The translations under genes were made by a program, and so were the position numbers. A stretch of DNA of 64,000 nucleotides from Escherichia coli. Lineage in GTDB: Bacteria > Pseudomonadota > Gammaproteobacteria > Enterobacterales > Enterobacteriaceae. Below are positions 29,255 to 29,656 of this stretch, piece by piece. A model generated the notes under the pieces. It was not told the DNA's origin. It did no database searches and was given only the letters and a program-made list of their open reading frames with translations. Location: NCBI RefSeq assembly GCF_024700885.2, contig NZ_CP117016.1. One strand, 5' to 3'. Positions within the stretch are counted from its first letter, which is position 1. Each line of letters opens with the position of its first letter.

Positions 29255-29276
29255 TTCGATTCCGAGTCCGGCACCA
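29255..29276 (+). repeat. 22-nt copy of the tRNA-Phe 3' end (TTCGATTCCGAGTCCGG-CACCA), island att-type direct repeat; not an intact tRNA
   Basis: Matches the pheV/pheU 3' end with one G missing; no D or anticodon arm upstream. Confidence 0.6.
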
Positions 29277-29425
29277 CTATTCTAAAGAACCCGCCCACAA
29301 GGCGGGTTTTTGCTTTTGGATCTTTATATAAAATAAACTTGGGAGCATAACGCCATCAGGTCTTAAACACTCCCGAATCATCAATAAACATCCCCCGCTA
29401 ACAAAACACAGTTCAGTTCACATAA

Positions 29426-29656
29426 CATCCCTGTTATCCCACACATATCTGCTGGCCGAACGACGCCAGTGCGCGTACGGAGGCAAGAGCAGCCCTGCAC
29501 ATGGCAGCGCTTGTGGTAACCTGGTTTAATCCGGTGATAAAGGCGTTTTACATGCATCTGCCAGCAGCCGGAAAAACCAAAAAAGTGGCGCTGGTTGACT
29601 GTATGCGTAAATTGCTGACCATCCTGAACGCAATGCTCAGAAAGAACGAAGAGTGA
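29426..29656 (+). pseudogene. IS110-family transposase, 3'-terminal fragment (about 76 codons)
   Basis: C-terminal ...RTEARAALHMAALVVTWFNPVIKAFYMHLPAAGKTKKVALVDCMRKLLTILNAMLRKNEE; no upstream coding body. Confidence 0.55.

What the first reader, a model, noticed from the sequence alone, without database searches (positions are those of the whole stretch)
29255..29656. Island boundary: tRNA-Phe 3' end copy followed by IS110 transposase remnant
A 22-nt copy of the pheV/pheU 3' end (one G missing) lies just before kps and marks the right edge of the tRNA-associated island to the left. An IS110-family transposase 3' fragment of about 76 codons follows.
Basis: partly seen in the sequence, partly recalled or inferred. 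Interest (0 to 1): 0.4.

Follow-up and report, generated by a model that had tools for sequence, protein, structure and literature searches.

The report
Right end of pheV genomic island
This is the well-known right-hand attachment site of a large mobile island inserted in an E. coli phenylalanine tRNA gene, followed by a dead insertion-sequence fragment that always sits in front of the capsule genes; it is real but ordinary.

Summary
TTCGATTCCGAGTCCGGCACCA (29255-29276) is the last 23 nt of tRNA-Phe minus one G, and is unique in the window. It is followed by the native pheV terminator and flank (29277-23323 region; identical to the sequence after intact pheV in K-12 and UTI89). The window is 99.998% identical to E. 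coli MLI114, where intact pheV plus a full-length P4-type integrase lie about 157 kb to the left, outside the window. So this is attR of a GI-pheV island (T6SS, pic, yee module, resistance region).

The same G-deleted attR is already published for 16 reference strains, and as the 22-bp repeat at which PAI-V excises. It also occurs at pheU with diverged island ends, so the deletion is probably carried by the island rather than local decay.

The IS110 fragment is real, but its limits need correcting:
- It covers residues 250-321 of a 321-aa transposase (29468-29686).
- It has an in-frame TGA at 29654-29656.
- The IS right terminus is at 29707.

The fragment belongs to the kps left flank, not to the island. 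About 1,600 of 5,426 complete genomes carry it, 228 of them directly after an intact pheV.

The parts
26166..26579 (+). 5' part of the DUF4942 gene, the last gene of the island's 'yee' module, interrupted by ISEc10
   Evidence: PGAP annotation of the identical record (locus 17267-17680 = window 26166-26579); alignment to the uninterrupted gene in L013
26576..28984 (+). ISEc10 (IS21 family; istA frameshifted, istB intact) inserted in the DUF4942 gene; context only, boundaries ambiguous by 1 nt
   Evidence: Only MLI114 covered the whole 28900-29900 query; every other listed hit began at query position 85 (window 28984), the right end of the insertion
28983..29144 (+). 3' part of the DUF4942 gene
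   Evidence: PGAP annotation; ORF 28971-29144
29145..29254 (+). Non-coding right end of the island, between the DUF4942 stop and the att core. Conserved together with the core at both pheV and pheU sites
   Evidence: 100% to ~90% identity in 1,763 genomes
29255..29276 (+). attR core: copy of the last 23 nt of tRNA-Phe lacking one G
   Evidence: Same sequence listed as attR in Table 1 of PMC11537424
29277..29323 (+). Native chromosomal flank of pheV, including its intrinsic terminator (stem-loop 29285-29311 plus T tract)
   Evidence: Alignment with K-12 and UTI89 pheV downstream sequence; terminator scan
29324..29467 (.). Single-copy spacer specific to kps-bearing genomes; start of the 18-kb segment absent from K-12
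   Evidence: Divergence from K-12 after GGATCT. Found once per genome in 1,631 genomes and nowhere else
29468..29707 (+). IS110-family remnant. Codons for residues 250-321 of a 321-aa transposase (29468-29683), original stop 29684-29686, in-frame TGA at 29654-29656, IS right terminus ...CAAGACAGTTG at 29697-29707. Lacks the N-terminal ~249 residues and the left end
   Evidence: PGAP annotates 29474-29656 as an incomplete IS110 family transposase
30467..31450 (+). kpsF, first gene of kps region 1
   Evidence: PGAP annotation (locus 21568-22551); ORF
47387..47389 (-). Stop codon of yghD (gspM). K-12 homology resumes here, which is the right end of the kps-specific segment. No second tRNA-Phe repeat here

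Best explanation
The 22-nt element is attR, the right attachment site of a ~157-kb integrative genomic island (GI-pheV, also called PAI-V).

How it arose (inferred from the anatomy). The island inserted by site-specific recombination between its attP and the 3' end of the chromosomal pheV gene. The enzyme was the island's P4-type tyrosine integrase. Integration left a functional pheV at the far left, with the island supplying new downstream sequence. It pushed the old tRNA 3' end, with its own terminator, to the right edge of the island, which is what the window shows.

The missing G. It is most likely a polymorphism carried by the island's attP. It ended up in attR because strand exchange takes place to its right, in the last ~7 nt (GGCACCA).

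What it can still do. attL and attR remain the substrates for integrase-mediated excision.

What lies beyond the terminator. This is a separate, older accessory segment: the 18-kb group 2 capsule (kps) locus, wedged between the pheV terminator and yghD. Its left flank begins with a 144-nt spacer and a dead 3' remnant of an IS110-family element. The remnant has no catalytic domains, no left end and a premature stop. It is fixed in kps-bearing E. coli and has no role in the island's mobility.
For: Shown:
- The core is unique and exact.
- Intact pheV and an integrase lie 157 kb to the left in the same genome. The integrase is 420 aa with Arm-DNA-bind_3, Phage_int_M and Phage_integrase domains.
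- The sequence right of the core matches native pheV downstream DNA in K-12 and UTI89. The sequence after pheV at attL is different.
- UTI89 shows the empty site with the same kps flank.
- In one search, 228 genomes matched at least 80% of a query spanning intact pheV, its terminator and the kps spacer. The query was designed so that only direct adjacency reaches that coverage.
- 639 genomes have this island end plus core plus spacer.
- The G-deleted core recurs at pheU attR sites, with island ends from 100% to ~90% identical.
- It sits at identical relative coordinates in UTI89, ABU83972, ST131 and EAEC 042, and one nt offset in APEC O2:K1.

From the literature:
- PMC11537424 Table 1 lists TTCGATTCCGAGTCCGG-CACCA as attR in 16 strains. 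It describes 55989-type islands with pic, T6SS, ibr and yee modules.
- PMC10272209 describes 22-bp direct repeats at pheV, a P4-like integrase, at least 14 inferred excisions in CC95 and a circular product.
Against: - Excision of this particular 157-kb island was not tested. It carries many IS elements and a resistance region, and its repeat is imperfect.
- PMC11537424 notes that a single mismatch in direct repeats can lower deletion frequency by orders of magnitude.
- The attP origin of the G deletion is inferred from distribution, not from an observed circular form.
- Some published definitions (PAI V of strain 536, PAI-CFT073-pheV; from my own knowledge) include kps within the 'island', so where the boundary is drawn depends on the definition used.
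Confidence: 0.92

Rival explanations
1. The repeat is a fossil. It marks where an island once integrated, but because of the 1-nt deletion and the island's later growth and decay it no longer works as an excision site, and the island is fixed in the chromosome.
For: The repeat is imperfect. The island has swollen to ~157 kb with IS3, IS66, IS1, IS21 and Tn3-type insertions and a resistance region next to the integrase. The literature states that a single mismatch can reduce deletion frequency strongly.
Against: The same 22-bp repeat flanks the CC95 PAI-V, for which at least 14 losses and a circular product are reported. The integrase here is full length with all three domains. The G-deleted core is conserved over diverged islands at two tRNA loci, which argues that it is compatible with mobility.
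Confidence: 0.3
2. The true right boundary of the pheV island lies beyond kps at yghD. On this reading the 22-nt repeat is only an internal junction between two modules of one composite island that moves as a whole.
For: kps is absent from K-12, so it is itself horizontally acquired. Some published island definitions include kps (my own knowledge).
Against: There is no second tRNA-Phe repeat anywhere in the window. The native pheV terminator lies between the core and kps. 228 genomes carry kps directly after an intact pheV with no island. PMC11537424 and PMC10272209 both place the island end at the repeat before kps.
Confidence: 0.04
3. The 22-mer is a chance match or a decayed duplicate tRNA gene unrelated to integration.
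For: None beyond the fact that ARAGORN sees no tRNA.
Against: 0 matches in 100 shuffles. The match is flanked by the authentic pheV terminator and sits exactly at the end of a conserved island module.
Confidence: 0.01

Closest known systems
GI-pheV / PAI-V of E. coli with the 23-bp imperfect attR TTCGATTCCGAGTCCGG-CACCA (for example 55989, O104:H4, APEC O1, S88, ED1a, H10407; PMC11537424 Table 1)
   Same: - Identical attR sequence.
- Integration at pheV next to yqgA/speC.
- P4-type integrase.
- Right-end 'yee' module ending in the DUF4942 gene.
- 55989-type cargo: pic, T6SS clusters, ibr-like genes, helicase.
   Different: - At ~157 kb it is larger than the 110-kb maximum in that paper's reference set. 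The extra size comes from a ~35-kb IS1-bounded resistance region next to the integrase and from further IS insertions.
- Here the attR abuts kps, whereas in the B1 strains attR abuts K-12-like backbone (the latter is my inference, not checked here).
- ISEc10 interrupts the last island gene.
CFT073 / ABU83972 / ST131-type GI-pheV (intP4.1) with the 19-bp imperfect attR TTTCATTCCGATTCCGGGCACCA
   Same: Same chromosomal site. Same downstream pheV terminator, IS110 remnant and kps.
   Different: Different island end (AbiEii/DUF6088 genes instead of the yee module). Different attR polymorphisms: three substitutions in the left part of the core and GGG retained.
Empty pheV-kps configuration (UTI89 and 227 other complete genomes)
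   Same: Identical right-hand side: CTATTCTAAAG... terminator, 144-nt spacer, IS110 remnant, kpsF.
   Different: Intact pheV in place of the 22-nt fragment; no island.
Intact IS110-family elements of Enterobacteriaceae (for example WP_000056792.1 on pCFSAN004179G; WP_000081848.1 in E. coli OkiPb01717)
   Same: 86-88% nucleotide identity over the last ~220 nt, including the right terminus ...CAAGACAGTTG. 75% amino-acid identity over 72 residues.
   Different: - The window copy lacks the first ~249 codons and the whole left end.
- It has TGG changed to TGA.
- It is followed by AT rather than the CTG seen after all three intact copies examined.

Membership tests
tRNA-associated integrative genomic island attR (GI-pheV) | Direct repeat identical or near-identical to the 3' end of the target tRNA gene | tested here: met
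   22 of 23 nt, one G deleted; unique in the window
tRNA-associated integrative genomic island attR (GI-pheV) | Intact target tRNA gene at the other end, with an adjacent tyrosine integrase | tested here: met
   tRNA-Phe at record 990456-990531 next to yqgA/speC. Integrase at 988996-990258, 420 aa with Arm-DNA-bind_3, Phage_int_M and Phage_integrase domains. Both are outside the window, in the 99.998%-identical record.
tRNA-associated integrative genomic island attR (GI-pheV) | Sequence outside the repeat equals the native flank of the tRNA gene in genomes without the island (empty-site test) | tested here: met
   Window 29277-29323 aligns with K-12 and UTI89 pheV downstream DNA. UTI89 continues identically into the kps flank.
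tRNA-associated integrative genomic island attR (GI-pheV) | Excision to a circular form and restoration of attB | not testable with these tools
   Reported for PAI-V with the same 22-bp repeat in CC95 (PMC10272209). Not tested for this island.
IS110-family insertion sequence | Transposase with an N-terminal DEDD (RuvC-like) domain and a C-terminal Transposase_20 domain | tested here: not met
   Only residues 250-321 of 321 remain. The Pfam Transposase_20 match covers only profile positions 60-86 of 87 and is below cut-off. It is a remnant, not a member element.
IS110-family insertion sequence | Both element termini present | tested here: not met
   The right terminus is present at 29697-29707. 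No left end, and no homology upstream of 29468.
IS110-family insertion sequence | Sequence homology of the surviving part to family members | tested here: met
   tblastn E=7e-32, 75% identity. NF033542 E=2.5e-8. 1,357 plasmid records matched.

The most novel reading that the evidence does not exclude
The IS110 remnant and the 144-nt spacer may be the scar of the event that first placed the group 2 capsule locus beside pheV. An IS110-family (bridge-RNA-guided) element, or DNA carrying one, would have sat just downstream of the pheV terminator. A deletion or recombination that removed its left three-quarters would have created the present left junction of kps. That junction has since been inherited or transferred unchanged by roughly 30% of E. 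coli genomes. The data do not exclude this. The remnant keeps its native right terminus, is single-copy, and has the same truncation point and the same premature stop in every genome inspected.
Probability: 0.12. Interest if true: 0.3.

Novelty: already known. Interest (0 to 1): 0.12.

Why it matters
It matters little as a discovery. The pheV island, its 22/23-bp imperfect attR and the neighbouring kps locus are all described in the literature.

It is useful as annotation in three ways:
- It fixes the exact right edge of a 157-kb virulence-plus-resistance island in an enteroaggregative-type strain.
- It separates the integrase-mobilisable unit from the capsule locus.
- It gives precise limits for a conserved IS110 pseudogene that marks the left flank of kps.

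The one small addition is that the G-deleted core recurs at both pheV and pheU with diverged island ends. This suggests the 'imperfection' is inherited with the island and places strand exchange in the last ~7 nt of the tRNA gene.

Tried and rejected
- **Second repeat.** I looked for a second tRNA-Phe 3'-end copy that would put kps inside the island. None was found with up to 3 mismatches. Gapped copies other than the known one were not searched exhaustively.
- **RNA families.** An Rfam scan of 28900-30500 at a permissive threshold gave only two sub-threshold hits on the terminator hairpin: P9 at 23.5 bits against 43, and Trp_leader at 22.3 against 41. I rejected both as chance.
- **Other copies of the spacer.** I tested whether 29324-29467 has copies elsewhere that would reveal its origin. 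It is found only at this locus.
- **Right flank of the remnant.** I tested whether it matches the flank of intact relatives. It does not: matches stop at 29707.
- **Literature on the remnant.** A search for an IS110 remnant upstream of kpsF found nothing relevant.
- **ISEc10 target-site duplication.** None was evident at the junctions. Not pursued.
- **Exact identity to MLI114.** One homopolymer difference (C8 against C7 near 10,660), otherwise identical over the ~49.9 kb compared (window 1-49900).

Full report
**Source and context**

The window matches the chromosome of E. coli strain MLI114 (NZ_CP117013.1; human stool, Mali) on the minus strand. Across window 1-49900, the part compared directly, the only difference is one homopolymer length, C8 against C7 near window 10,660. 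Record position equals 862,505 minus window position.

The annotation of that record shows three blocks:
- Left of the finding: the right part of a genomic island. It carries T6SS genes, YfjI, a GTPase, Ag43, IS66, and the 'yee' module (DUF932, antirestriction, JAB/RadC, DUF987, YeeU/CbtA, DUF5983, DUF957, DUF4942).
- Right of the finding: kpsFEDUCS, a region 2 with glycerophosphotransferase genes, and kpsTM.
- Beyond that: yghD/gspL/gspK.

**The observation**

- TTCGATTCCGAGTCCGGCACCA lies at 29255-29276. It is the only such sequence in the window with up to three mismatches allowed, and none occurred in 100 shuffles.
- The intact tRNA-Phe of the same genome and of K-12 ends in TTCGATTCCGAGTCCGGGCACCA. 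The window copy is therefore the last 23 nt with one G of the GGG run missing.
- ARAGORN finds no tRNA gene in the window.

**What the repeat is**

Three tests for an island attachment site were met.

1. An intact tRNA-Phe, flanked by yqgA and speC and hence pheV, lies at record 990,456-990,531. A 420-aa tyrosine recombinase lies immediately beside it. That protein has the Arm-DNA-bind_3, Phage_int_M and Phage_integrase domains typical of P4-type integrases. The distance to the repeat is about 157 kb, so both are outside the window.

2. The 47 nt to the right of the repeat (29277-29323) are the native downstream flank of pheV. They include its intrinsic terminator, with a stem-loop at 29285-29311 followed by a T tract. 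They align with the sequence that follows intact pheV in K-12 and, base for base, in UTI89. At the other end of the island, pheV is followed by a different sequence (AATTCATATCAACGGACCTCC...), which is supplied by the island.

3. The empty site exists in nature. In UTI89, intact pheV is followed directly by the same terminator, spacer, IS110 remnant and kpsF.

This is the classical arrangement of attL (tRNA plus island DNA) and attR (island DNA plus the displaced tRNA 3' end and native flank).

**The island**

Between pheV and the repeat, the MLI114 record carries:
- the integrase;
- an IS1-bounded resistance region (blaCTX-M-15, blaTEM-1, tet(A), two mer operons, a class 1 integron with dfrA5, sul1);
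- a helicase/methyltransferase/S8 peptidase defence-like cluster;
- pic;
- two T6SS clusters (aai, and a sci-1-like cluster with Tle1/Tli1);
- ibrB-like genes;
- the Ag43 and yee modules.

This matches the '55989-type' GI-pheV described in PMC11537424, which has a helicase, pic, T6SS, ibr and yee. It is enlarged by the resistance region and by IS elements.

**Already published**

- Table 1 of PMC11537424 lists exactly TTCGATTCCGAGTCCGG-CACCA as the attR of GI-pheV in 16 reference strains, including APEC O1, S88, ED1a, H10407, 55989 and O104:H4 strains.
- PMC10272209 describes the island between kpsF and pheV (PAI-V), with a P4-like integrase and 22-bp direct repeats. It infers at least 14 excision events in CC95 and cites a circular excision product.
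- The finding is therefore a known feature.

**The missing G**

The island end plus the G-deleted core occurs in 1,763 complete genomes. It occurs at pheV next to kps (MLI114, APEC O2:K1, EAEC 042) and also at pheU next to cadC. The adjoining island ends range from 100% to about 90% identical, yet the core is always GG.

CFT073/ST131-type islands have a different set of core polymorphisms: three substitutions in the left part, with GGG kept. In every type, the differences from the tRNA lie to the left of the last ~7 nt.

My inference is that the left part of the attR core is inherited from the island's attP, and that strand exchange happens in GGCACCA. The deletion would then be a heritable island trait rather than local decay. 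This has not been demonstrated.

**The kps segment**

K-12 and the window diverge after GGATCT (29323). They rejoin at the stop codon of yghD, window 47387-47389, which reads TAG here and TAA in K-12. About 18.06 kb (29324-47387) takes the place of roughly 100 bp of K-12 sequence. There is no tRNA-derived repeat at the right junction.

Counts among the 5,426 complete genomes:
- the kps left flank is present in about 1,600 (1,604 at 80% or more coverage; 1,631 for the spacer);
- 228 of these have intact pheV directly abutting it;
- 639 have the yee-type island end and attR seen here;
- the remainder presumably have other island ends, such as the CFT073/ST131 type (not counted here).

The capsule locus is thus a separate accessory segment. 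The 22-nt repeat is the edge of the integrase-mobilisable unit.

**The IS110 fragment**

It is real, but its limits need correcting.

- Against an intact 321-aa IS110-family transposase (WP_000056792.1), tblastn aligns residues 250-321 to window 29468-29683. That is 54/72 identities, E=7e-32, and the alignment reads through an in-frame stop.
- The stop at 29654-29656 is TGA where intact copies have TGG. The original stop is at 29684-29686.
- Nucleotide homology (86-88%) continues to 29707, ending ...CAAGACAGTTG. That is where three independent intact copies also stop resembling each other, apart from a following CTG. The window has AT there.
- Upstream of 29468 there is no homology in any frame.
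- The remnant lacks the N-terminal catalytic domain and the left end. From my knowledge of the IS621 structure, it probably also lacks the conserved serine of the C-terminal domain; in the intact relative the DSG motif sits near residue 239.
- NCBIfam NF033542 matches only its last 61 profile positions. Pfam Transposase_20 is below cut-off.
- PGAP annotates the remnant at identical relative coordinates in UTI89, ABU83972, ST131 and EAEC 042, and one nt offset in APEC O2:K1. The truncation is therefore ancestral to the kps flank. It has nothing to do with the island, because it is present when pheV is unoccupied.

**How it works (committed view)**

- Shown: the anatomy of attL, attR and the empty site, and an integrase with all three domains.
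- From the literature: islands with this same repeat excise.
- Inferred: this island could still excise by integrase-mediated recombination between the pheV 3' end and 29255-29276. The frequency is probably low, given its size and the imperfect core. I put about 0.3 on the sub-hypothesis that it is effectively immobile.
- The displaced terminator probably now ends read-through from the DUF4942 gene. This is inference only.
- The IS110 remnant is inert.

**Verdict**

The feature is already known, and interest is low.

Noticed in passing
window 26576-28984: A 2.4-kb ISEc10 (IS21 family; istA frameshifted, istB intact) splits the island's last gene (DUF4942). Only MLI114 covered the full 28900-29900 query; every other listed hit began at the right end of the insertion. 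No clear target-site duplication is seen at the junctions.
   Followed up: partly
MLI114 record 950,000-990,300 (L003/L004), left of the window: The GI-pheV carries an IS1-bounded resistance region of about 35 kb right next to its integrase. It holds blaCTX-M-15 with ISEcp1, blaTEM-1, tet(A), two mer operons, and a class 1 integron with dfrA5 and sul1. This puts chromosomal ESBL genes inside a potentially excisable virulence island and brings the island to ~157 kb.
   Followed up: no
L018 (K-12 pheU downstream) against L004:37300-37538: The island-supplied sequence after pheV at attL closely resembles (differing at only a handful of positions over ~120 nt) the 'native' sequence after pheU in K-12, which contains the integrase pseudogene yjdQ. 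The K-12 pheU flank therefore looks like the stump of an old island's left end. At pheU, the attR of present-day islands abuts that stump.
   Followed up: partly
L016:1553-2725 and L017 (E. coli OkiPb01717, PD7): Intact relatives of the IS110 remnant sit at the same spot in two unrelated genomes. The spot is between two zinc-ribbon genes of the Hha / inovirus-Gp2 island module, a module that MLI114's island also has without the IS. This is consistent with site-specific insertion. All three intact copies are followed by CTG.
   Followed up: partly
L008 (NZ_LR890315.1, 'Klebsiella oxytoca plasmid 4', 29 kb): A record labelled as a K. oxytoca plasmid carries an E. coli-type yee module, the IS110 remnant (98.7% aa identity) and kpsFEDU. 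It is either an assembly or contamination artefact, or a transfer of this E. coli region.
   Followed up: no
window ~10,658-10,666: A poly-C run is C8 in the window and C7 in the RefSeq record. This is the only difference found over the ~49.9 kb compared, and is likely an assembly-version or homopolymer sequencing difference.
   Followed up: yes
window 38575-45000 (kps region 2, minus strand): Region 2 encodes a CDP-glycerol glycerophosphotransferase family protein, a bifunctional cytidylyltransferase/SDR oxidoreductase and a hypothetical protein. This suggests a glycerol-phosphate-containing group 2 capsule. The serotype was not determined.
   Followed up: no
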